Positions 4,925 through 18,105 of a stretch of DNA of 60,712 nt are shown piece by piece. A model generated the notes under the pieces. That model was not told the DNA's origin. It was given only the letters and a program-made list of their open reading frames with translations, and ran no database searches. Within the stretch, counting starts at the first letter, position 1. Every line of letters starts with the position of its first letter. A program made the translations under genes and the position numbers. Source of the stretch: Candidatus Nomurabacteria bacterium (lineage in GTDB: Bacteria; Patescibacteriota; Minisyncoccia; Phycocordibacterales; SBAW01); assembly GCA_943356415.1 (NCBI GenBank), contig CALREW010000001.1, positions 289,900 through 350,611 of the forward strand. Reading direction: 5' to 3'.

Positions 4925-5749
4925 CTAGCTGGTGTACTTGCTGCCGGACGGCGGCGGAAGGACGATCGGTTTCGGCGTCTGGTGGTTCTGCTGCGGCACG
5001 GCGCCGAACAGGATCCACTTACCGCCATTCTTGATCGCCTCGCCCACTCGGGTGTAGCCCGGCCAGTTGCCCGGCAGGCCACACGAAGTGTTCTTCCAAC
5101 CGCTACGCGGACCGATGTCGAGCTTCGGAGCTTCGACATCGATACTCCAGGTGGCGCAAGCCAGGACCTGGGGGAAGCCTTCGAGAATCGCCCTCGGAAG
5201 GACGAAGCTCACCTGGCCAAGGTGTTCACCGCCGCGAAGCGGAAGACGGACGCGGATCTCGTTGGACGAGACGCGTTCGACTTTGGCATACCCGCGGCAG
5301 ATGCCGTCGCGGATGCCCGGAGGCTGGTTAGGCGCCGTGCCGGTGAGGTACGGGACCTCGTCCGGAGCGCCGGCGGCGTTAACGCCGAGAATCGTGAACA
5401 CGATCTCGGCATCGGCGCCGTCGTAGCGCGGCACGTGGCCGTCCTTCACGTCCCTGTAGAGGGGCATGAGGTAGTCGCCCGCCGGCGTACGATTGTCCAG
5501 GTGCTCGAGGGCGCGAGCGTTCCGATTCGGCGTCAGGACGTCGAAGCGGAACAAGCCGTTGATGCCTTCGAGCGAGAAGCGCTCGCCGACCCGGCAAGCC
5601 GGGACAGGCATCGGCGTCTTCATCGCCACGGCAGTGACGCCGCGGTTCGACCCAGACAGGGTCGATATCGCGTCGCCCGCTGTGGTGTTGCACGCAGAAA
5701 GCGAGCCTGCCAGCCCGAGGGCCAGCAGTAGGATTCGGATGATGTGCAT
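4925..5749 (-). CDS. Putative lipoprotein, unknown function
   Basis: Leader ending LSAC (lipobox); purine-rich RBS-like AAGAAGGG upstream; own promoter. Confidence 0.75.
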   Translation of the reverse strand: MHIIRILLLALGLAGSLSACNTTAGDAISTLSGSNRGVTAVAMKTPMPVPACRVGERFSLEGINGLFRFDVLTPNRNARALEHLDNRTPAGDYLMPLYRDVKDGHVPRYDGADAEIVFTILGVNAAGAPDEVPYLTGTAPNQPPGIRDGICRGYAKVERVSSNEIRVRLPLRGGEHLGQVSFVLPRAILEGFPQVLACATWSIDVEAPKLDIGPRSGWKNTSCGLPGNWPGYTRVGEAIKNGGKWILFGAVPQQNHQTPKPIVLPPPSGSKYTS

Positions 5750-5841
5750 CGCGCGGTTTCCCTTCTTGGAGTTGTGTGCCGCGGCGCGGCACTGGTGTGG
5801 AATGGTTGAACGTTAGAGTTGAAGTCAAAGAGTCCTTCAAA

Positions 5842-5871
5842 ATTATACACTATAAAAATACTCTTTGTCAA
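5842..5871 (-). promoter_or_regulatory. Consensus sigma70 promoter for the two-lipoprotein operon
   Basis: TTGACA (5871-5866), 18 bp, TATAAT (5847-5842), in an AT-rich patch. Confidence 0.8.
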
Positions 5872-5896
5872 GAGTAGCTAAAATCGTGACTCAGGT

Positions 5897-5930
5897 ACGA
5901 AAAACGGCCGCCCGGAGGCGGCCGTTTCGT
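5897..5930 (-). terminator. Intrinsic terminator
   Basis: ACGAAACGGCCGCC-tccg-GGCGGCCGTTTTTCGT on minus strand just after the 5953 stop. Confidence 0.8.
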
Positions 5931-5952
5931 CGAAGGTTTGCCGTGAGACCGA

Positions 5953-7011
5953 TCAGGTCTTCGGCGGCGTTGTCAGCGCCGGAGGCGGAGCAGCCGGAGT
6001 CGGCGTCGGCGCAGGCGGGGTTGCCGCAGGCGCAGGCGTCGGCGCAGGTGCCGGAGCCGTCGTGACCGGCGGTGCGGTCGGCGTCGGCGCAGGCGTCGGC
6101 GTCACCGTCGGCTGGGGAGCCGGGGTGGGAGCAGGCGCAGGTGCCGGAGCCGGAGCCGTCGTGACCGGCGGAGCAGCCGGCGTCGGCGTCGGCGCAGGCG
6201 GGGTTGCCGCAGGCGCAGGTGCCGGAACCGGAGTCGTAGCCGCCGGAGGAGGCGCAGGCGTCGGCGTCACCGTCGGCTGGGGAGCCGGGGTGGGAGCAGG
6301 CGTCTGCGGGGCGTGACCCGGATTCGGCGAAGCACCCGAGAGCTTGCCGAGGTCGGCAGCCTTGATGATGATGCCGGTGGGGTTGTTGCACCCATCGACA
6401 CCATCCGGCTGACCGTACTTCGGCACGAGGCCGATGAGTTCGGCATACTCGCCCACGATCACGACCACGTACGAGAACAGGACCTTGCGCGAGAAGGTGG
6501 CCTTGATCGGCCCCCACGCACTGCCCTTCCCGTAGCCCTGAATCGCGATGGCGTCGCCGTTGCCGATCATGGTGTGCCGGATACCACCGGCAACCCACTG
6601 ACCTTGCGCAGCAGACACCGTCGGAGCGGCGATGGCACCGCGGTTCCGCAGCAGGCCGAAGCTTTGCTGCGGCTTCGCCGGGTCGGCGAAGACGTGCGGG
6701 TCGCTGCCGACCGTACCCCAATTCTGGAGGTTGGTCGAACGGCCGATCGGGCCGGCGACGCAGTCGGGGGCGAAGGAGTCGACACCCTGGAAGGTGCCGA
6801 TCTTCTTCATCTCCCCCGTGCACTGCCACGCGGGCGCCGTCGGCGTCGGCGGAGTTGTAGCAACCGGACCACTCGTGGTCCGCTGCTCCACCGCACCCGT
6901 GCCCTGACGGGTCGGGTACGGCTCGTTGCCAGCAGGCGGCGACGGCGAACACGCCGTAACCACCAACGCGGCAGCCAACGCGGCTGTCGTCAAGATTTTG
7001 CTGAACTTCAT
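5953..7011 (-). CDS. Putative lipoprotein with repetitive Pro/Thr/Ala C-terminal tail
   Basis: MKFSKILTTAALAAALVVTAC lipobox leader (ATG 7011); about 110-aa PT/PA-repeat tail. Confidence 0.8.
   Translation of the reverse strand: MKFSKILTTAALAAALVVTACSPSPPAGNEPYPTRQGTGAVEQRTTSGPVATTPPTPTAPAWQCTGEMKKIGTFQGVDSFAPDCVAGPIGRSTNLQNWGTVGSDPHVFADPAKPQQSFGLLRNRGAIAAPTVSAAQGQWVAGGIRHTMIGNGDAIAIQGYGKGSAWGPIKATFSRKVLFSYVVVIVGEYAELIGLVPKYGQPDGVDGCNNPTGIIIKAADLGKLSGASPNPGHAPQTPAPTPAPQPTVTPTPAPPPAATTPVPAPAPAATPPAPTPTPAAPPVTTAPAPAPAPAPTPAPQPTVTPTPAPTPTAPPVTTAPAPAPTPAPAATPPAPTPTPAAPPPALTTPPKT
5975..6310 (-). repeat. Intragenic degenerate tandem repeats (Pro/Thr/Ala)
   Basis: PTPAPQPTVTPTPAP x2, PAPAATPPAPTPTPAAPP x2 and PPVTTAPAPAP x2, with matching nucleotide repeats. 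Confidence 0.85.
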
Positions 7012-7154
7012 GGAAGTATCCTGTTTTCGACGAACGTCATATCTGCAGTTACGGGCGCAGAACTCCCCGTTTGCTCCTTCCAACTTAGGAGCGTTACTCA
7101 AAACTTGTTGGCCGGTCTCGCTTTCCTTTCGCGAAGACCTATCCGACCAGGAAA

Positions 7155-7796
7155 TTAATTCCTGAGCGAATAGCTCTGCACGAACTCAGCCTCAACAACG
7201 AAGCGGTCTCCCTTGTCCGCAAACGAGTTGCAGGTGACAAGCGTAAGACGGCGCGTTCCGTTCTTTGAGAGATCAATTACGCCGTTGTCTACCTTTACGT
7301 ATTTAACGGACGTCACGCGATACTCGTACGCGGTCGTCGCCGAGTACACAGTGACTATCTCCCCCGTCTTCAGTTTCTGAATGTCATTGAACTCTTTGTA
7401 CGCCGGGTTAAGCGTCGTGCGCAGGTAGCTCGAGTGGCCGAAGAGAAGGACGTTGCCGTCTTCATTCAACATCGCCGAACCTGGATAGTGCACGGCACTC
7501 TTCATAAGAGCAGCGTCAAGCACGTGAATGTCCGAGCTCGCCGGATTACCAACGTTGTTATCAAGTTTGATACTCGACGCAACAACGCGCACAGGTTCCT
7601 CCGCAAGTGTTTGTGTCACCGACTCGCCGGCAACTTCACCCACTACGTCGGACTGTACCGAAAGCTCCGGCACTGCACCAATCGTGGCGAGCATGCCGAA
7701 GGAAACAAAAAAGACAGCAAAAAACGTCAAAGAAAATGCTCCTTTGCGCTCCGCAATCAGTCTTAGTATCGTTTTTGTGCTTCCGTTTTGAGCCAT
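7155..7796 (-). CDS. Sortase family protein
   Basis: N-terminal TM; HYPGS, LFGHSS (catalytic His), LTLVTC (catalytic Cys), downstream R in DRFVV. Confidence 0.92.
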   Translation of the reverse strand: MAQNGSTKTILRLIAERKGAFSLTFFAVFFVSFGMLATIGAVPELSVQSDVVGEVAGESVTQTLAEEPVRVVASSIKLDNNVGNPASSDIHVLDAALMKSAVHYPGSAMLNEDGNVLLFGHSSYLRTTLNPAYKEFNDIQKLKTGEIVTVYSATTAYEYRVTSVKYVKVDNGVIDLSKNGTRRLTLVTCNSFADKGDRFVVEAEFVQSYSLRN

Positions 7797-13122: not shown

Positions 13123-13872
13123 TTAAAACTGGTTGATGAAGCGCAGATCAGCCGAGTGCATCAAACGCACATCATCGATACCGAAGCGGAGCATGGCCAA
13201 GCGGTCTATGCCCATACCAAACGCAAACCCAGTGTATTTCTCTGGGTCTACACCTGCCGCACGAAGTACGTTGGGGTGTATCATGCCCGCGCCCATTATT
13301 TCTATCCAACGATCTTTCAACTTCTCAGGCACATTTGAACCCGTGAGGCGCATATCGACTTCAGCTCCCGGCTCAACAAATGGAAAGAAACTGGGGCGCA
13401 GACGTACCTCAACTGAACCTTTGAAAAGCTCGGTAAAGTACTGTGCAAGTACGCCGCGCAAATGCCCCATGTGCACGCCTTCTCCAACCATGAGTCCTTC
13501 AAGTTGGAAAAATTCTGCTTCATGTGTGATATCCGTTGCTTCATTGCGAAAGACTTTGCCAGGAACAATGATGCGATACGGCGGCTTAATCCCCGCTTTC
13601 ATCTGCGCTTCCATATAGCGCACCTGCACGTTACTGGTGTGCGTGCGCAGCACATACCCGGGAGCGTCTTTGATAAAGAACGTGTCCTGCATATCTCGCG
13701 CAGGATGGTCTTTGGGGACGTTTAGCGCATCGAAGTTATAGTGCTCGCTCTCCAAAAGTGGCCCTTCAGCAAAGGCAAAACCCATCTTGGCGAAGATCTG
13801 ATGCGTCTCGCGTATAAGCGAGGAAATAGGGTGCAAATGCCCCTTAGGAGCCTCCGTTCCGGCCACTTCCAT
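13123..13872 (-). CDS. pheS: Phenylalanyl-tRNA synthetase alpha subunit (no N-terminal coiled coil)
   Basis: GHLHP, NFDALN, HPARDMQDTF, LRTHTS, RPSFFPFVEP, GFAFGMGIDR. Confidence 0.97.
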   Translation of the reverse strand: MEVAGTEAPKGHLHPISSLIRETHQIFAKMGFAFAEGPLLESEHYNFDALNVPKDHPARDMQDTFFIKDAPGYVLRTHTSNVQVRYMEAQMKAGIKPPYRIIVPGKVFRNEATDITHEAEFFQLEGLMVGEGVHMGHLRGVLAQYFTELFKGSVEVRLRPSFFPFVEPGAEVDMRLTGSNVPEKLKDRWIEIMGAGMIHPNVLRAAGVDPEKYTGFAFGMGIDRLAMLRFGIDDVRLMHSADLRFINQF

Positions 13873-13953
13873 ATAGGGGCTATACTATCGCCCATTTCCC
13901 CCCAAAACAAACCGTATTTACCGACATCACACCTTCAAAACCTTGCATTAGAC

Positions 13954-13995
13954 CGGCACACTTAGTTGTACCTATAGGATCATTTGAGTGTGCCG
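13954..13995. repeat. Palindromic site 1 (42 bp, CCTATAGG core)
   Basis: CGGCACACTTAGTTGTA-CCTATAGG-ATCATTTGAGTGTGCCG; inverted near-copy of site 2. Confidence 0.9.
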
Positions 13996-14014
13996 TTTCT
14001 AGATCACAAAAAGA

Positions 14015-14575
14015 CTAAGGGAGGTTGAAGAGTTTTTTAAGAGGCGTGTCGTACTCGACCCTCTCTGCAACCACATACAAGAGACTCTTCCCAATCCGCT
14101 TTTCGGCTTTCAGAAGAGCCACATACTCTTCACATTCATACGGGTAAATCCAAACACTATCCTGCAATCTTATAAACCCCGCCCGTGACAATTCTCTTCG
14201 GATAGAGATTCGAATTGATCGCGCCTTCTCTGGAATATCGAAAGTGACAATGCGCCATTTCTTGTCCCACTTCTCTGGAAGTTTAAGGACTGCACCCACA
14301 TTCTCATATTCAGCAAGCTTTTTTCTACCTTCCTCCGTCAAGGATATATATTTTTGGCCATCCCGAAACTGAAATCCGATGAGTCCTTTCCGGTGGAGCC
14401 GGCTAACAGCATTCTTTATATTTGCTCTCGGATAGGGTTTCTTTTTCCCAATGCCAAAGAGTTTTAGCGCTGGTCCGATGCCAGGCGCTACGGCTGCGAT
14501 TGTAATAAGACCAACAACTGCAAGAGTGGCCAACAAAATCGATTCTATTGGGACCCGGGACGTTTCTCTCTTCAT
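14015..14575 (-). CDS. PaaX-like winged-helix regulator with Cas2-like central domain (CPR family)
   Basis: wHTH-like (IKNAVSRLHRKGLI...YISLTEEG) then WDKKWRIVTFDIPE...LQDSVWIYP; start at MKRE (14575). Confidence 0.85.
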   Translation of the reverse strand: MKRETSRVPIESILLATLAVVGLITIAAVAPGIGPALKLFGIGKKKPYPRANIKNAVSRLHRKGLIGFQFRDGQKYISLTEEGRKKLAEYENVGAVLKLPEKWDKKWRIVTFDIPEKARSIRISIRRELSRAGFIRLQDSVWIYPYECEEYVALLKAEKRIGKSLLYVVAERVEYDTPLKKLFNLP

Positions 14576-14590
14576 ATAAGTCTCTAGTAA

Positions 14591-14632
14591 AGGCACACTC
14601 AAATGATCCTATAGGTACAATTAAGTGTACCT
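14591..14632. repeat. Palindromic site 2 (42 bp)
   Basis: AGGCACACTCAAATGAT-CCTATAGG-TACAATTAAGTGTACCT, 16 bp upstream of the PaaX-like ATG. Confidence 0.9.
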
Positions 14633-14650
14633 CTTAATTATATGCGCAAC

Positions 14651-17482
14651 CTACTGTGAGACGCCCCACTTGAAACGGATAATTCCGTAACTCAGCGTCG
14701 GTGGCGCTGTTCCCGTCTGAAAGAAGTTTGTGAAAGCGGTCGTATCCTCGTCAACTGACCCAAAACGCGGCACAAAGATGACCGCAAACATATCCATCCC
14801 CTGCGTTGGACTGGTGAGTGCCGATTCAAATTCAAACTTCGATGTCGCAACACCCAAGTAATGGGACGAAACTGCAGTTGAGCTGCCAACGGTTCCAATA
14901 AACAAAGCCCCGAATCGATTCCCACCAAAGTTTGACGATTCGTACGTGCACCTGCCCTGTGTCCCATTTCCAAACTGATAATATCCACCTTCAATAAATG
15001 AAACGGTGTCTGGCTCACAGAAATACCCGATCGAGCTTAGAGACTGACTATTTTGCTTTTTAGGGCTGGCGTTTAGAGCTGCACCATTAGCATCGTTTCC
15101 ATTGCGCCAGAAACCATCATTGGGATTCCAGTTCGAAGGGGTACTTCCAAGTGTGTTTGGTTGTGTCCGCTCCATTGAGCGTCGAGCAGTGTCATTCGTT
15201 CCTCCACACCAGTTGCCACTACAGGCAGTCGCAACGGGAGTGCTATCGATGGTTGTGGTCGCTTGGCCACCAGGTGCGTACGCCAGCGCTATTGCGACTG
15301 GCATAGAGGTAAGCGCTTGGAATGGGTAGACGAAATCCGAAGCAACACTTGTGTCAGTTTCCGTTCGCTCAATGAGAAAAAAGGACTCTCCGGAGATAGT
15401 CCCGCTTAGTGATACAGGTTCTGCTGTTCCAATACTCAATGCAACACTGCTCAGCGAAATCGGATCAGAACTACGGTTATATAACTCAATCCATTGGGAA
15501 TCCGGGCTTGCGTTCGTTCCAGACCAAGCAACCTCGTTAATCGCGATTGGCATTTCCAATGATTCAACAGACACTGCAGTTGAAGTCGCAGTATTCCCTG
15601 CAGCGTCATACGCCACAACCGCGAGATTGTGCGATCCAGCTGCGAGGGATACTTGAATCTCTGAATTTGACGAGGTTGCTGTAGCGGTGCCATCAACCAA
15701 AGCGGCAAAATACCTCATGTCCAAACTGCTTGAGGCGATGCGTAAATGAGCTTGATTCATAACGGCGCATCCAGAAGTCTTAAGCGAATGACTACACTCA
15801 AATACTGAAAAGCCACTCACGTCAGGGGCAGTTCTATCTACCGAAAAAGAGCGAGTTGCGCCAACCGAGGTACGTCCATTCAAATCTACCGCTGTGACAC
15901 TTAACTGAATTTGTCCCTCTGTGGGCGTTATTGCAACAGACCAAGTACCATCGTTAGCTACTGTTGTAGTGGAAGATCTATCTGTTGCATTTTCTTGATA
16001 CGAAACACTGATGCCGAATCCAGCGTCAGAAGTTCCAGATACCAAAATTGATGCTTCATTGTGAGAACTGTCTGCGAGCGGCAAGCCGATTGTAGGAACT
16101 GTTACATCTTGTGGCTGCGTGCTTGTGCTAGCGGTAGTGGGAGCCCCGCCGCCTCCGCCTTGCGGCACTGGGAAAAGCTCTTGGTCTGTTTTCTTGGGCA
16201 GAATGACCGAAGGGGAGCTTGTTGCTGCATTTTGTACTGCTGTTCCTTTTGATGTTTCCTTAGATGGAACGTCCTTTATTTTTGACTCCTCTGTGGCTTT
16301 TTGTTTGCTTATTTGAAGCACTTTGGACGGCTCTTCCACAACAGATGGGTTTGGGAGGGCTTGGATAGCAGCAGCCGGGGATGAACCAGTTAATTCGGCC
16401 ACATCCTCTTCAGTAAGACTCGAACCATAAAGTTTTTTTACTAAGCTGAAGCCTTTAAGCGCTAAATTCTTTGCGCGACGCTCTGCCTCACTCGTATTTT
16501 TCTTCTCGATAGTGTGAGTCTTTTTCTCACGTTCCACTTCCCTAAAGAAAAAGTCGATGACGCCTACACCATTTCGTATTGCTTCGCGAGACAGGTAGGT
16601 CCAGTAGTCTTTTAGAACCAATCCTCCAGGATCATCCAAGGATTTATCGGTATAAGTAGGCTGACCGAAAGTGTCATGAGTGACTTGAACATAGGCAACC
16701 TTGTGCCCATCAATCCTGTCATATACAAAATTGTCGTCTCCTAGATTAAGGCTTGCGAGTGACGGACTCTCATAATTTTTAAAAAGAGTATCCTTGCTGA
16801 CAAAGCCCTGATTTGTATATAAAGCCATCGCTGAAATGTATTCATCCAGAGATTCATATTTTTGAATCGTCCCAAGGTTTTCTGGAACTTTTATCTGCCC
16901 GAGGCCAAACTGCCCTGAGAACTTCTCATATGAATCTGGGTCGCCAACTCCCTCATGATTCAAATGTTGATCGTTGCGCACATGCGCTGGAACTGACGAA
17001 TCCTGCAAAAGATGGAGGATATGCCCCAAACTTCTTAATCCTCGATTTTTATCACCATACACATATTCATATAAAGCCCTATCCCAGGAGTAGTCTGTTG
17101 CGGAACTAAAGTAGAGGTCGTTGTATCCGACGCGTTTTGAGCAAAAACCCCAGTCACAGTAATTAGCCTGCGCTTCTGTATTTTGCGCCCAAACACGCGA
17201 TGGTGGCCAAGTGTTAAAAAAGACTGAGAGACCTCGTCCGTTGATTGGGTCAAAAAAGTGATTCAAAGGGCGCGACCCGTCATCCTCATCAAAACTCCCC
17301 TGGACTATTTGTTCAGTTTGAAACGAATCGAAAGTCTCACCGCTTAGACTTTCATACGCTGCGACAGTTGCTTGAGAAATGCCCTTGTGAGTGTCTCTTT
17401 CATAAGCAAAAAGCAGGTGTGGTTGCAAAACTACACCTGCAATCAATGGGACAACTAATCCTATGGCTCTAGGATTTTCCAT
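14651..17482 (-). CDS. Large exported protein: Zn-dependent phospholipase C/P1-nuclease-like domain, Ig-like domains, lamin-tail domain
   Basis: Signal peptide; AY..TH, NHFFDP, LGHILHLLQD..VPAH..ND.H, DSYE metal-ligand pattern; DRTAP/YDAAGN Ig-like motifs; INEVAWSG...QWIELYN (LTD). Confidence 0.75.
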   Translation of the reverse strand: MENPRAIGLVVPLIAGVVLQPHLLFAYERDTHKGISQATVAAYESLSGETFDSFQTEQIVQGSFDEDDGSRPLNHFFDPINGRGLSVFFNTWPPSRVWAQNTEAQANYCDWGFCSKRVGYNDLYFSSATDYSWDRALYEYVYGDKNRGLRSLGHILHLLQDSSVPAHVRNDQHLNHEGVGDPDSYEKFSGQFGLGQIKVPENLGTIQKYESLDEYISAMALYTNQGFVSKDTLFKNYESPSLASLNLGDDNFVYDRIDGHKVAYVQVTHDTFGQPTYTDKSLDDPGGLVLKDYWTYLSREAIRNGVGVIDFFFREVEREKKTHTIEKKNTSEAERRAKNLALKGFSLVKKLYGSSLTEEDVAELTGSSPAAAIQALPNPSVVEEPSKVLQISKQKATEESKIKDVPSKETSKGTAVQNAATSSPSVILPKKTDQELFPVPQGGGGGAPTTASTSTQPQDVTVPTIGLPLADSSHNEASILVSGTSDAGFGISVSYQENATDRSSTTTVANDGTWSVAITPTEGQIQLSVTAVDLNGRTSVGATRSFSVDRTAPDVSGFSVFECSHSLKTSGCAVMNQAHLRIASSSLDMRYFAALVDGTATATSSNSEIQVSLAAGSHNLAVVAYDAAGNTATSTAVSVESLEMPIAINEVAWSGTNASPDSQWIELYNRSSDPISLSSVALSIGTAEPVSLSGTISGESFFLIERTETDTSVASDFVYPFQALTSMPVAIALAYAPGGQATTTIDSTPVATACSGNWCGGTNDTARRSMERTQPNTLGSTPSNWNPNDGFWRNGNDANGAALNASPKKQNSQSLSSIGYFCEPDTVSFIEGGYYQFGNGTQGRCTYESSNFGGNRFGALFIGTVGSSTAVSSHYLGVATSKFEFESALTSPTQGMDMFAVIFVPRFGSVDEDTTAFTNFFQTGTAPPTLSYGIIRFKWGVSQ

Positions 17483-17994
17483 TTATTTGTAAAAGTATTT
17501 TTAGTCAATCGAAATAAAAAAGGGATGGTGTCGCCCTTTGCATATACTCTGAGCTGGTAATTTCCTGTAGCTTTCAATTCTTCGCCTTCGACTCTTCCGC
17601 TTTTGTATGCATCAACAAGACCTTTCGTCCCGTCTATTTCCCTGCTTATTTCAAATTTTGAAAGTGCCGCCTTTTGGTCTTCAGGGATAAAGTACTTCGA
17701 AGCCAGATTAAAATCCTTTTTCTCTATCGCTTCAACAAATAGTCGGAGAGTTTCTTCAGGTGTATCACCACCGTAAGTGTCATTCTTGTATTGCTCGTCG
17801 AGTTGTTGGCTCTGGTAGTGGAGAAGCTGGGCAGCAAGACCGCGAGCGTATTCATCCGTATGCGAAAGATCGTAATCGCCGCGCCAATCAAAATACGACT
17901 TCAAGTAGAAGGTGCCCAAAATCAGAACTAGAAAGCCCAACCAAAACCACCAACGAAAATAGATGGGGCGGCGCGTGCCTGCAGCCGTTTTCAT
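17461..17994 (-). CDS. Membrane-anchored hypothetical protein, partner of the downstream PLC-like gene
   Basis: N-terminal TM; TYGGDTPEETLRLFVEA motif; 22-bp overlap with the next gene. Confidence 0.75.
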   Translation of the reverse strand: MKTAAGTRRPIYFRWWFWLGFLVLILGTFYLKSYFDWRGDYDLSHTDEYARGLAAQLLHYQSQQLDEQYKNDTYGGDTPEETLRLFVEAIEKKDFNLASKYFIPEDQKAALSKFEISREIDGTKGLVDAYKSGRVEGEELKATGNYQLRVYAKGDTIPFLFRLTKNTFTNKWKILEP

Positions 17995-18059
17995 GGAAAT
18001 AGTCTAGATCAATATTGAGCGTGCAAATCGAGATATCAACAGTTTCCGGTCGTGCCGAC

Positions 18060-18105
18060 AAAGGTACACTCATATGATCCTATAGGATCATATGAGTGTA
18101 CCTTT
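18060..18105. repeat. Palindromic site 3 (perfect 46-bp palindrome)
   Basis: AAAGGTACACTCATATGAT-CCTATAGG-ATCATATGAGTGTACCTTT. Confidence 0.92.

What the first reader, a model, noticed from the sequence alone, without database searches (positions are those of the whole stretch)
13954..18105. Three 42-46 bp palindromes with interchangeable half-sites delimit two accessory modules
Seen: sites at 13954, 14591 and 18060 share GG(C/T)ACACT-8-CCTATAGG-8-AGTGT(G/A)CC. Two half-site types occur: A (..TA[G/A]TTGTA) and B (..CA[A/T]ATGAT). Site 1 is A|B, site 2 is B|A, and site 3 is a perfect B|B. Sites 1 and 2 are therefore inverted repeats around the PaaX-like gene, with similarity extending inward (GTGCCGTTTCTAGA vs GTGCCTTTACTAGA). 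Sites 2 and 3 bracket the PLC-like operon. The segment looks AT-richer than its flanks. Inference 1: recombination sites of a cassette or invertible system; B|B is the junction expected from joining two B ends. Inference 2: operators of the PaaX-like wHTH protein, since each lies upstream of a minus-strand gene (pheS, itself, the PLC operon). No recombinase is in the window.
Basis: partly seen in the sequence, partly recalled or inferred. Interest (0 to 1): 0.8.

Follow-up and report, generated by a model that had tools for sequence, protein, structure and literature searches.

The report
Regulator gene bracketed by its operators
The three palindromes are most likely the DNA-binding sites of the small PaaX-like protein encoded between two of them, an arrangement found in every relative checked among the tiny-genome CPR (Patescibacteria) bacteria, which gives a testable regulator-and-site pair in a group whose gene control is almost unknown.

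Summary
Three 40-bp sites (13955-13994, 14592-14631, 18063-18102) match GGYACACT-N8-CCTATAGG-N8-AGTGTRCC, with none expected by chance. Sites 1 and 2 form a 49-nt, 92% inverted repeat around a 195-aa gene for a winged-helix plus Cas2-fold (PaaX_M) protein.

- **Distribution.** The core ACACT-N8-CCTATAGG-N8-AGTGT occurs in public genomes only in Patescibacteria.
- **Bracketing.** All 15 distinct homologous genes found through the motif have one site at the start codon and one just past the stop.
- **Co-variation.** Eleven homologues fetched by protein alone carry other ~40-bp quasi-palindromes in the same two places. Two paralogues in one genome each have their own class. A motif-free flank test separates these genes from 194 controls.
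- **DNA, not RNA.** Arm mismatches show no G:U bias, and 3' sites lack T-runs.
- **Geometry.** The site resembles the E. coli PaaX operator (6-N27-6).
- **Promoter overlap.** The 5' site carries a -10 box placed for a leaderless mRNA.

Best reading: these are cognate operators. The 5' site autorepresses, the 3' site is auxiliary, and site 3 sits before the neighbouring surface-protein operon. The recombination-cassette idea finds no support, because synteny is kept in a relative whose sites have co-varied. What the 3' and solo sites do is inferred, not shown. I found no published description.

The parts
13955..13994 (.). Site 1, the 3' site of the PaaX-like gene, of type A|B. It starts 20 nt past the stop codon and lies 82 nt upstream of the pheS ATG.
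   Evidence: A sister strain shows the paired change 13957 C>T with 13992 G>A, at symmetric positions 3 and 38.
14592..14631 (.). Site 2, the 5' site of the PaaX-like gene, of type B|A. It contains the candidate TTG (14602) and GTG (14596) starts and lies 16 nt upstream of the ATG at 14575. It starts 19 nt past the stop of the 943-aa gene.
   Evidence: In the family alignment, homologues start at the ATG that ends the palindrome.
18060..18105 (.). Site 3, a perfect 46-bp palindrome of type B|B (core 18063-18102). It lies 68 nt upstream of the ATG of the 177-aa gene and 54 nt past the stop of the PEGA gene.
   Evidence: (I4). An equivalent site with a different sequence sits at the same place in L077. 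Logan contigs break inside it in all four assemblies laid, which is an assembly artefact.
14015..14602 (-). Gene for the PaaX-like protein: winged helix-turn-helix plus a Cas2-fold (PaaX_M) domain, without the PaaX C-terminal domain. The start codon is uncertain: TTG 14602, GTG 14596 or ATG 14575.
   Evidence: Pfam PF20803, E = 1.2e-21. AlphaFold2 model with pLDDT above 90 for residues 57-195. Foldseek top hits are PaaX 8A39, Rv0674 3KFW and then Cas2 proteins. The family holds at least 1393 clusters at 90% identity and 754 clusters at 50% identity with E <= 1e-30.
14651..17994 (-). Two overlapping genes bracketed by sites 3 and 2: 177 aa (17461-17994, membrane anchor) and 943 aa (14651-17482, Ig-like and lamin-tail domains). 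This is the candidate local target operon.
   Evidence: The same gene pair lies upstream of the PaaX-like gene in L077, and a comparable pair in Yonathbacteria L089. Segments 16609-16864 and 17333-17693 are highly divergent between strains.
18001..18006 (-). A -10-like TAGACT, 6 nt upstream of the ATG of the 177-aa gene. This is an inferred leaderless promoter. It places the centre of site 3 near -87.
   Evidence: Read directly from the sequence. The same geometry is present in L077. Across the window, TAnnnT peaks 12-15 nt before ATG and there is no Shine-Dalgarno peak.
13882..13887 (-). A -10-like TAGTAT, 9 nt upstream of the pheS ATG. This is an inferred leaderless promoter. It places the centre of site 1 near -100.
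   Evidence: Read directly from the sequence. L077 has TAGGAT at the same spacing.

Best explanation
The three palindromes are the cognate DNA-binding sites (operators) of the adjacent PaaX-like protein. This protein is a minimal relative of PaaX: a winged-helix DNA-binding domain plus a Cas2-fold dimerisation domain, with no ligand-binding C-terminal domain.

A dimer would read the two outer ACACT boxes, about three helical turns apart. The invariant centre CCTATAGG would lie under the dimer core.

- **Site 2 (5' site)** covers the promoter and start of the protein's own gene, which is probably transcribed as a leaderless or near-leaderless mRNA. Binding there would shut off its own synthesis.
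- **Site 1 (3' site)**, just past the stop codon, is a second, family-wide operator. It most likely cooperates with the 5' site by looping the ~600-bp gene, or acts as a bound roadblock or insulator.
- **Site 3**, the perfect symmetric version, lies upstream of the neighbouring 177-aa/943-aa surface-protein operon, so that operon is bracketed by sites 3 and 2 and is probably co-controlled.

**Shown:** the sites exist. They bracket every family member examined. They co-vary with the protein. The 5' site overlaps the start codon and a -10 box. They behave as DNA sites, not RNA sites.

**Inferred:** that this protein is the binder, the sign of regulation, looping, and any control of neighbouring genes.
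For: 1. The core motif occurs in 19 stretches of 185,579 species genomes. All 19 are Patescibacteria, and several genomes hold 3-5 sites. A further 50 metagenome loci carry it.
2. All 15 distinct PaaX-like genes in those loci have a site (at most 4 of 18 core positions changed) at the 5' end and another from 2 nt inside to 144 nt past the stop codon.
3. Eleven homologous genes on ten loci, fetched through the protein alone (44-63% identity to the window protein), have other ~40-bp quasi-palindromes at both ends. Examples are ACATACTCCCTGTCTCTA|TAGAG.., GTCACTAAGTGTAACGA|CCGTT.. and GCACACTCCTATGTCCGA|TCGG... Two paralogues 7 kb apart in L090 each have their own class.
4. A motif-free test took the best 30-nt match between the 5' and 3' flanks. 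It scored 20-30 for 12 PaaX-like genes, with 11 of 12 at 24 or more. For 194 control genes the mean was 18, the 95th percentile 20 and the maximum 24.
5. In L077 the synteny matches the window, and all three site positions are kept while the sequences differ.
6. In most ACACT-class loci the ATG that ends the 5' palindrome is the start codon. The gene-proximal N8 holds TAnnnT at -12 to -7 in 10 of 15 5' sites, against 1 of 15 at the same place in 3' sites. Where only one site of a pair has a perfect core, it is always the 3' one.
7. The window's genes show a -10-like peak 12-15 nt before ATG and no Shine-Dalgarno peak.
8. Arm mismatches in 67 sites are G:T 30, A:C 32 and other 121, which is the random 1:1:4 ratio. 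The sequence blocks are conserved rather than the pairing.
9. The 3' sites are not followed by T-runs.
10. The fold and profile match PaaX 8A39. E. coli PaaX binds TGATTC-N27-GAATCA and represses its own promoter by blocking RNA polymerase (PMC9493321).
Against: - No binding data exist, so another co-evolving protein could be the binder.
- The window's own 5' site lacks a clear -10 at the family position, and its start codon is uncertain.
- Sites 1 and 3 are centred about 100 and 87 bp upstream of the inferred pheS and 177-aa starts. This is outside the core promoters, so repression of those genes by occlusion is unlikely.
- Many 3' sites lie between convergent genes, where there is no promoter to control.
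- Genes next to solo sites have no common function.
- The protein has no obvious sensor domain. Its N-terminal 55 residues are hydrophobic and modelled with low confidence.
- The Cas2 catalytic-type Asp (FDIPE) is invariant. A pure dimerisation role does not require it.
Confidence: 0.6

Rival explanations
1. The sites are bound by the PaaX-like protein, but the role is architectural rather than gene-regulatory. A sensor-less DNA-bridging, insulator or centromere-like protein would mark a few intergenic positions and bridge or anchor them, and the bracketed gene would be one consequence of this.
For: - There is no ligand domain.
- Sites occur at variable distances from promoters and in convergent intergenic regions.
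- Neighbouring genes are unrelated housekeeping genes.
- Paired sites about 600 bp apart are well placed for bridging.
- The N-terminus is hydrophobic.
- From my own knowledge, not tested here: plasmid partition loci such as pB171 par2 have centromere sites on both sides of the genes.
Against: - No partner ATPase or other partition gene is adjacent.
- Only a handful of sites were found per genome, and only three in this 60-kb window, all within 4 kb.
- The 5' site specifically acquires a -10 box and the start codon, which fits promoter control.
Confidence: 0.14
2. The palindrome-gene-palindrome unit is a small selfish or domesticated mobile module. It would be analogous to a RAYT gene flanked by REP sequences, or to a free-standing homing endonuclease. 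The Cas2-fold domain would act as a nuclease on the palindromes, and solo sites would be spread copies or scars.
For: - The gene is always flanked by its own palindromes.
- All solo copies seen are intergenic.
- Site sequences are specific to each genome.
- The invariant Asp in FDIPE matches the Cas2 beta1 Asp, which E. coli PaaX lacks.
- In L090 an ~800-bp unit holding a second paralogue lies 8 nt from the 3' end of tRNA-Leu. It is absent from the syntenic L081.
- The gene sits in different neighbourhoods in different lineages.
Against: - Copy number is low, at 3-5 sites per genome with the exact core.
- One gene was seen per locus, except in L090, which has two.
- Site positions are kept in place while their sequences co-vary with the protein.
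- The borders of the L090/L081 indel lie 82 and about 40 bp outside the palindromes, not at them.
- No target-site duplication is visible at the window's sites.
- The flanking pair has no fixed orientation.
- The family is nearly absent from viral contigs.
Confidence: 0.12
3. The palindromes act as RNA (or single-strand) hairpins. They would be terminators, 3'-end stabilisers or RNase III-type processing sites that separate transcripts of adjacent minus-strand genes.
For: - All three would fold if transcribed: -20.2, -21.6 and -34.6 kcal/mol, with z-scores of -4 to -9.6.
- Each lies 19-54 nt past the stop codon of a gene.
- Some sites lie between convergent genes.
Against: - There is no excess of G:U-type mismatches: 30, 32 and 121 against the expected 1:1:4 ratio.
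- The inner arm positions pair in only 61-76% of sites, while the sequence blocks ACACT and CCTATAGG were invariant by the search design and are also conserved in sister classes.
- There is no T-run after the 3' sites or after the window's sites on the transcribed strand.
- No Rfam family matches.
- If the mRNA is leaderless, the 5' site lies upstream of the start codon and is not transcribed.
Confidence: 0.07
4. The sites are recombination sites of a cassette or invertible system that delimit two accessory modules.
For: - Sites 1 and 2 are a 92% inverted repeat around a gene.
- Half-sites look interchangeable.
- The segment is AT-richer than its flanks.
- The 177-aa and 943-aa genes are hypervariable between strains.
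Against: - The same modules, in the same order, occur in L077, whose protein is 63% identical, and with co-varied sites.
- Contigs of four metagenomes show only the reference arrangement.
- Bracketing is a universal property of the protein family, and the orientation of the pair is not fixed.
- The PaaX-like protein is a winged-helix/Cas2-fold protein, not a known recombinase.
- The contig breaks at site 3 are explained by a perfect palindrome longer than the assembler's word size.
Confidence: 0.05

Closest known systems
E. coli/Pseudomonas PaaX, the phenylacetyl-CoA-responsive repressor (PDB 8A39)
   Same: - Both have an N-terminal winged helix followed by a Cas2-like central domain (Pfam PaaX_M 1e-21; profile and fold matches).
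- Both have a long operator made of two short inverted boxes about three helical turns apart: TGATTC-N27-GAATCA against (YAT)ACACT-N24-AGTGT(ATR).
- PaaX represses its own promoter by occlusion.
   Different: - The C-terminal ligand-binding domain is missing (195 aa against 316 aa).
- The TIGR02277 score is 46.9, against a cut-off of 264.6.
- There are no paa genes nearby.
- The site has an invariant 8-bp centre.
- A second operator just past the stop codon is found in every family member examined.
- The Cas2-type Asp is retained.
Cas2, the CRISPR adaptation protein
   Same: - The ferredoxin-like fold is the same (Foldseek hits to many Cas2 structures).
- The FDIP...QDSVW signature resembles Cas2 (YDI...Q.SVF), with an invariant Asp.
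- From my own knowledge: Cas2 is a dimer that lies on duplex DNA within the Cas1-Cas2 complex.
   Different: - It is fused to a winged helix.
- The window has no CRISPR-like repeat array and no cas1 was seen among the genes looked at, and none appears among the called genes of the related loci.
- The Pfam and TIGR Cas2 scores fall below their cut-offs.
- Database names that call these proteins 'CRISPR-associated endonuclease Cas2' are automatic.
REP elements with their RAYT gene (REPtrons; Nunvar 2010, Bertels and Rainey 2011, cited from my own knowledge)
   Same: A gene is flanked by copies of a genome-specific extragenic palindrome, and further solo copies lie in intergenic regions.
   Different: - The protein is not an HUH/Y1 transposase.
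- There are only a few copies per genome rather than tens to hundreds.
- The orientation of the flanking pair is not fixed.
- Positions are conserved between divergent genomes.
Auxiliary-operator looping systems (lac O1/O2, gal OE/OI, lambda CI OL-OR; cited from my own knowledge)
   Same: A weaker operator overlaps the promoter, and a stronger operator lies a few hundred bp away. This offers cooperative autorepression through a DNA loop.
   Different: - Here the second operator lies just past the regulator's own stop codon, and this holds across the whole family.
- Oligomerisation beyond a dimer is unproven.

Membership tests
PaaX family repressor (TIGR02277 / PaaX N, M and C domains) | [quoted passage not shown] | tested here: met
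   The AlphaFold2 model shows a recognition helix at 59-71 and a beta wing at 75-88 with pLDDT above 90. The profile aligns to PaaX residues 55-146. Helices 1-2 (residues 1-55) are modelled with low confidence.
PaaX family repressor (TIGR02277 / PaaX N, M and C domains) | Central Cas2-like (PaaX_M) domain | tested here: met
   PF20803 scores E = 1.2e-21 at 77 bits, against a cut-off of 24. Foldseek finds PaaX 8A39 and 3KFW as top hits.
PaaX family repressor (TIGR02277 / PaaX N, M and C domains) | C-terminal helical ligand (phenylacetyl-CoA) domain, and a full-length equivalog score | tested here: not met
   The protein ends at residue 195, right after the Cas2-like fold. TIGR02277 scores 46.9 bits against a cut-off of 264.55.
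PaaX family repressor (TIGR02277 / PaaX N, M and C domains) | Association with paa catabolic genes | tested here: not met
   The neighbours are pheST, a surface-protein operon, ligA/gatC, gyrA, aaRS genes and others.
PaaX family repressor (TIGR02277 / PaaX N, M and C domains) | Operator of two short inverted boxes about 27 bp apart that overlaps its own promoter | tested here: inconclusive
   The geometry is alike: 8-N24-8 against 6-N27-6. The 5' site overlaps the start codon and a -10 box. No binding experiment exists.
Cas2 (CRISPR adaptation) | Cas2 fold with the conserved beta1 Asp | tested here: met
   Foldseek gives TM-scores of about 0.5-0.63 when normalised to the Cas2 chains. D122 in FDIPE is invariant.
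Cas2 (CRISPR adaptation) | Encoded next to cas1 and a CRISPR array | tested here: not met
   The window has no CRISPR-like array. No cas1 appears among the called genes of 13 related loci. Not every window ORF was annotated.
REP/RAYT (REPtron) | The flanked gene encodes an IS200/IS605-type HUH tyrosine transposase | tested here: not met
   The domains are a winged helix plus PaaX_M only.
REP/RAYT (REPtron) | Many dispersed copies of the palindrome per genome | tested here: not met
   There are 3 sites in 60.7 kb, all within 4 kb. With the exact core there are 3-5 sites per MAG. Whole genomes could not be scanned with relaxed patterns.
Site-specific recombination cassette or invertible segment | A recombinase, and alternative arrangements in a population | tested here: inconclusive
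   No rearranged contigs appear in 4 assemblies, and synteny is kept in L077. Only contigs were available, not raw reads, and the window was not scanned exhaustively for recombinases.
Intrinsic (Rho-independent) terminator | A GC-rich hairpin followed by a U-run on the transcribed strand | tested here: not met
   The mean is 2.1 T in the 8 nt after 15 3' sites. The window's sites are followed by GGUCUAAU, UUUACUAG and UUUGUCGG.

The most novel reading that the evidence does not exclude
The palindrome-gene-palindrome unit could be an autonomous ~0.7-0.8-kb module built around a DNA-binding Cas2-fold protein that recognises ~40-bp palindromic repeats flanking its own gene. It would be gained and lost as a cassette, as with the L090 paralogue next to a tRNA. 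It could be a selfish or domesticated element, and possibly a living relative of the kind of repeat-recognising Cas2 ancestor from which CRISPR adaptation modules drew their Cas2.
Probability: 0.1. Interest if true: 0.85.

Novelty: new variant of a known kind. Interest (0 to 1): 0.6.

Why it matters
- **A first regulator-site pair for CPR bacteria.** Almost nothing is known about transcription control in CPR/Patescibacteria, which cannot easily be grown. This work gives a large, unnamed protein family (at least 754 clusters at 50% identity) a predicted DNA motif, a predicted autoregulatory circuit and lineage-specific site variants.
- **It can be tested without culturing.** EMSA or DAP-seq and reporter assays with synthetic DNA would test the prediction directly. 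No culture of the organism is needed.
- **A natural specificity data set.** The co-variation of protein and site across hundreds of lineages offers a natural data set for working out how this winged-helix/Cas2-fold scaffold reads DNA.
- **An unusual circuit.** A second operator right after the regulator's own stop codon, found family-wide, is an uncommon layout.
- **Annotation.** Many of these genes are currently named 'CRISPR-associated endonuclease Cas2', which is probably wrong.

Tried and rejected
- **Rfam.** A scan of 13-19 kb found only spurious below-threshold microRNA hits on the palindrome.
- **Sigma-54 promoter.** I considered GGCAC...TTG as a sigma-54-type promoter by eye. The spacing is off by one, and the GGC ends are specific to this lineage, so I dropped it.
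- **Promoter inside every palindrome.** The symmetric bidirectional-promoter idea fails because only the 5' sites carry TAnnnT at the right place.
- **Conserved divergent small gene.** An apparent divergent ORF at the 5' site (L005, L008, L027) was the antisense shadow of a plus-strand gene. My greedy ORF contexts therefore contain errors, and I give the counts of convergent, divergent and co-directional sites little weight.
- **Functional theme.** Genes next to solo sites share no function. They include aaRS genes, MreB, IscS, GrpE, HtpX, RpoB, DnaX, PurN/PurT and a histidine kinase.
- **Membrane anchor.** The N-terminal hydrophobic stretch has positive charges on both sides. Its pattern parallels PaaX helices 1-2, but the model confidence is low, so this stays open.
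- **RNA data.** No RNA runs hold the region.
- **DNA reads.** The DNA runs are available only as contigs, so rare inversions or circles could not be sought.
- **PLC-like label.** I could not support this label for the 943-aa protein.
- **Literature.** Searches for PaaX with CPR, Cas2-like or Cas2 found nothing.
- **Recognition code.** Comparing recognition-helix residues with site class gave no simple code from 18 proteins.

Full report
**1.

The pattern GGYACACT-N8-CCTATAGG-N8-AGTGTRCC matches at 13955-13994, 14592-14631 and 18063-18102. No further match appears even with 3 mismatches allowed, and none appears in 100 shuffles. The central octamer CCTATAGG occurs nowhere else in the 60.7-kb window.

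The two half-site types are real. Type B occurs four times and type A twice, and neither occurs outside the sites. Site 1 is A|B, site 2 is B|A and site 3 is B|B.

Sites 1 and 2 form a 49-nt inverted repeat, 92% complementary. Site 3 extends to a perfect 46-bp palindrome, 18060-18105, the only palindrome of 24 nt or more in the window. The 14-18 kb stretch has 44-49% GC, against about 50-53% around it.

All genes here are on the minus strand:
- pheT and pheS (13123-13872)
- a 195-aa gene (14015-14602)
- a 943-aa gene with Ig-like and lamin-tail domains (14651-17482)
- an overlapping 177-aa gene (17461-17994)
- a PEGA-domain gene, a cupin and a glycosyltransferase

**2. The protein between sites 1 and 2**

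Pfam finds the PaaX central Cas2-like domain at E = 1e-21, plus a sub-threshold Cas2 match. An AlphaFold2 model built on 56 homologues is confident for residues 57-195. It shows a recognition helix, a beta wing and then a ferredoxin-like Cas2 fold. The hydrophobic first 55 residues are uncertain.

Foldseek's best PDB hits are E. coli PaaX (8A39) and Rv0674 (3KFW), followed by many Cas2 proteins. A profile search of PDB sequences also puts PaaX first.

The protein lacks the PaaX C-terminal domain and falls far below the PaaX equivalog cut-off. Unlike E. coli PaaX, it keeps an invariant Asp in an FDIPE motif that resembles the Cas2 beta1 Asp.

The family is large:
- at least 1393 clusters at 90% identity with E <= 1e-5
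- 754 clusters at 50% identity with E <= 1e-30

Where named, members come from Yonath-, Kaiser- and Taylorbacteria, under automatic names such as 'Cas2', 'PaaX' or 'PadR'. Three literature searches found no paper on it.

**3. The motif elsewhere**

I scanned one genome from each of 185,579 species for ACACT-N8-CCTATAGG-N8-AGTGT. This gave 19 stretches, all in Patescibacteria MAGs (Kaiser-, Taylor-, Zambryskii-, Saccharibacteria, Paceibacterota and Parcubacteria), with 3-5 sites in several genomes. A metagenome scan added 50 loci.

The folded half-site consensus is C-A-T-ACACT-T-A-T-T-W-T-W-T-CCTA. Position 10 is A in 90% of half-sites, and the N8 part is specific to each genome.

**4. The key comparative result**

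Every PaaX-like gene in these loci (15 distinct proteins) is bracketed by two sites. One lies at the 5' end. The other lies from 2 nt inside to 144 nt past the stop codon.

This does not depend on the motif. Eleven homologous genes on ten loci, fetched through the protein alone, carry other ~40-bp quasi-palindromes at both ends of the gene:

| Locus | Half-site (centre shown as a bar) |
|---|---|
| L077 | ACATACTCCCTGTCTCTA\|TAGAG.. |
| L073 | CCACTAATTCTCACGG\|TCGTG.. |
| L074 | GTCACTAAGTGTAACGA\|CCGTT.. |
| L079 | GTAGTACTTAAATTAGCTA\|TAGC.. |
| L081 and L090, first paralogue | TTCTTAT..CCGG\|TCGG..ATAAGAA |
| L083 | CATTACACTCTCTTCCGT\|TCGG.. |
| L085 and L091 | ..ATTACGCTA\|TAGCGTAAT.. 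|
| L089 | GCACACTCCTATGTCCGA\|TCGG.. |

L090 carries two paralogues, 44% identical and 7 kb apart. Each has its own palindrome class at both of its ends.

A motif-free statistic makes the same point. I took the best 30-nt match, direct or inverted, between 140 nt around the start and 210 nt around the stop. It scores 20-30 for 12 PaaX-like genes, with 11 of 12 at 24 or more. For 194 control genes from the same loci the mean is 18, the 95th percentile 20 and the maximum 24.

**5. Sites evolve in place with the protein**

L077 encodes a 63% identical protein and has the same gene order as the window: 177 aa, 963 aa, PaaX-like, pheS. Its 5' site, its 3' site and the site before the 177-aa gene all carry the new sequence.

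A sister strain about 97% identical shows a paired change at symmetric positions of site 1: 13957 C>T together with 13992 G>A. An IscS-like gene, 79% identical between two genomes, has a site upstream in both, with different N8 sequences.

This is the behaviour of a binding protein and its sites, and it argues against recently inserted cassettes.

**6. The sites act as DNA, not RNA**

Among 67 distinct sites, mismatches between the arms are G:T 30, A:C 32 and other 121. This is the 1:1:4 ratio expected with no selection for wobble pairing. Inner arm positions pair in only 61-76% of sites, while the sequence blocks are fixed.

The 3' sites are not followed by T-runs, and the window's sites have none on the transcribed strand. 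They would fold if transcribed, at -20 to -35 kcal/mol, so a secondary role as 3' hairpins cannot be ruled out. Rfam has nothing real.

**7. The 5' site is a promoter-operator hybrid**

In most loci of the ACACT class the site reads CAT-ACACT...AGTGT-ATG, and that final ATG is the start codon of the gene. The N8 next to the gene holds a TAnnnT hexamer (TATAAT, TATACT, TATGAT, TAGAAT and others) exactly at -12 to -7 from that ATG. This is true in 10 of 15 5' sites, against 1 of 15 at the same position in 3' sites.

Where only one of the two sites has a perfect core, it is always the 3' site. In every such pair the 5' site carries the core mismatches. In L083, L085 and L073 a TATAAT lies 6-9 nt before the ATG, at or just beyond the palindrome edge.

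The window's own genes show a TAnnnT peak 12-15 nt before the ATG and no Shine-Dalgarno peak. Leaderless mRNAs therefore seem common in this organism. Examples are pheS (TAGTAT, 9 nt, ATG) and the 177-aa gene (TAGACT, 6 nt, ATG).

A protein on the 5' palindrome would thus cover positions -37 to +3 of its own promoter. E. coli PaaX does the same at its Px promoter, and its operator, TGATTC-N27-GAATCA, has the same long-spaced layout (PMC9493321).

The window is a slightly deviant case. Its palindrome ends in GCC rather than ATG. The start may be TTG 14602 or GTG 14596, both inside the site, or ATG 14575, which is 16 nt beyond it. A candidate -10 is TAGGAT, formed by the centre plus the B half. 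This point is unresolved.

**8. What the 3' and solo sites do is inferred**

The 3' site is present whatever lies downstream. That includes convergent genes verified by Pfam: SecF in L014, a response regulator in L008, and L006. Its role therefore belongs to the PaaX-like gene itself.

I favour cooperative binding with the weaker 5' site through a ~600-bp loop, or a bound roadblock or insulator. No data bear on this.

In the window, sites 1 and 3 are centred about 100 and 87 bp upstream of the inferred pheS and 177-aa starts. That is too far for simple occlusion. In L073 and L074 the 3' site ends 8 nt from the -35 box of gatC, which is an activator-like position.

Genes facing solo sites are unrelated housekeeping genes. 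My classification of site contexts relies on greedy ORF calls and contains errors.

**9. Mobility**

The orientation of the flanking pair is not fixed: direct 6, inverted 4, equal 5. The window's inverted repeat is therefore a feature of this lineage, probably produced by gene conversion.

The family is nearly absent from 2.9 million viral contigs. The window has no CRISPR-like repeat array.

One observation does favour cassette-like gain or loss. The second paralogue of L090, with both of its palindromes, lies in an ~800-bp segment 8 nt from the 3' end of tRNA-Leu(tag). This segment is missing from the syntenic L081. However, the indel borders lie 82 and about 40 bp outside the palindromes, so the palindromes are not the element's ends.

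All public runs holding this region are available only as contigs. These show one arrangement in four metagenomes. They break inside site 3, as expected for a perfect palindrome longer than the assembler's word. No RNA run holds the region.

**10. Verdict**

This is a CPR-wide family of minimal PaaX-like proteins (winged helix plus Cas2 fold) whose genes are bracketed by their own co-evolving ~40-bp palindromes.

The recombination hypothesis has no support. The protein is not a member of the PaaX equivalog family or of Cas2 proper, though it most likely works like PaaX at its own promoter.

I rate it a new variant of a known kind, with an interest of 0.6.

Confidence in the main readings:

| Reading | Confidence |
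|---|---|
| Cognate operators with autoregulation | 0.6 |
| Architectural role for the same protein-site pair | 0.14 |
| Selfish, REPtron-like module | 0.12 |
| RNA hairpins | 0.07 |
| Recombination sites | 0.05 |

Noticed in passing
window 5001-7101 (ORF 5953-7101, minus strand): GC rises to 63-71% here, against about 51% elsewhere. The ORF encodes a Pro/Ala/Thr-rich repeat protein (PAPTPAP... tail) next to a gene at 7155-7796, whose counterpart in the sister-strain locus L070 is called a sortase (Pfam). It is probably a sortase-anchored surface protein.
   Followed up: partly
window, all genes: -10-like TAnnnT hexamers peak 12-15 nt upstream of ATG starts, and there is no Shine-Dalgarno peak. 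This suggests widespread leaderless mRNAs in this organism. Relatives such as L081 do show GGAGG before the start.
   Followed up: partly
window 16609-16864 and 17333-17693: These two segments lie in the 943-aa gene and across the 943-aa/177-aa overlap. In a strain otherwise about 97% identical they are replaced by sequence of almost the same length but too divergent to align, so these are hypervariable surface-protein regions.
   Followed up: no
L090 17245-18043 versus L081 17506-17523: A second PaaX-like paralogue with its own palindromes sits in an ~800-bp segment 8 nt from the 3' end of tRNA-Leu(tag). The segment is absent from the syntenic relative.
   Followed up: yes
L085 4837-4876; L083 16105-16144: These are further 40-bp palindromes, 20/20 and 17/20, of sequence unrelated to the local PaaX-like sites. 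They lie in intergenic regions next to aminoacyl-tRNA synthetase genes. They may be sites of another paralogue encoded elsewhere.
   Followed up: no
window 17461-17994 and 14651-17482; L077 86-3489; L089 6107-8748: A small membrane-anchored protein overlapping a large secreted multi-domain protein lies directly upstream of the PaaX-like gene. This is seen in the window, in a relative with a 63% identical protein, and (with Laminin_G_3 domains) in a Yonathbacteria genome.
   Followed up: no
window 18060-18105; starts of L070, L071 and L077: Logan contigs from independent runs all end inside the perfect palindrome. This is an assembly break that could be mistaken for a structural boundary.
   Followed up: yes
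L088 1822-1861: A 200-kb contig filed as viral carries a perfect site, TATACACT ACCGGATA CCTATAGG TATCCGGT AGTGTAT. It may be a CPR genome fragment or a CPR phage.
   Followed up: no
window 14612-14631 and 13955-13974 (A-type half-sites): The A half is itself a small palindrome, GGTACA-CTTAAT-TGTACC. It repeats the outer box in inverted form where the B half has GATCC. Both A halves face away from the PaaX-like gene.
   Followed up: partly
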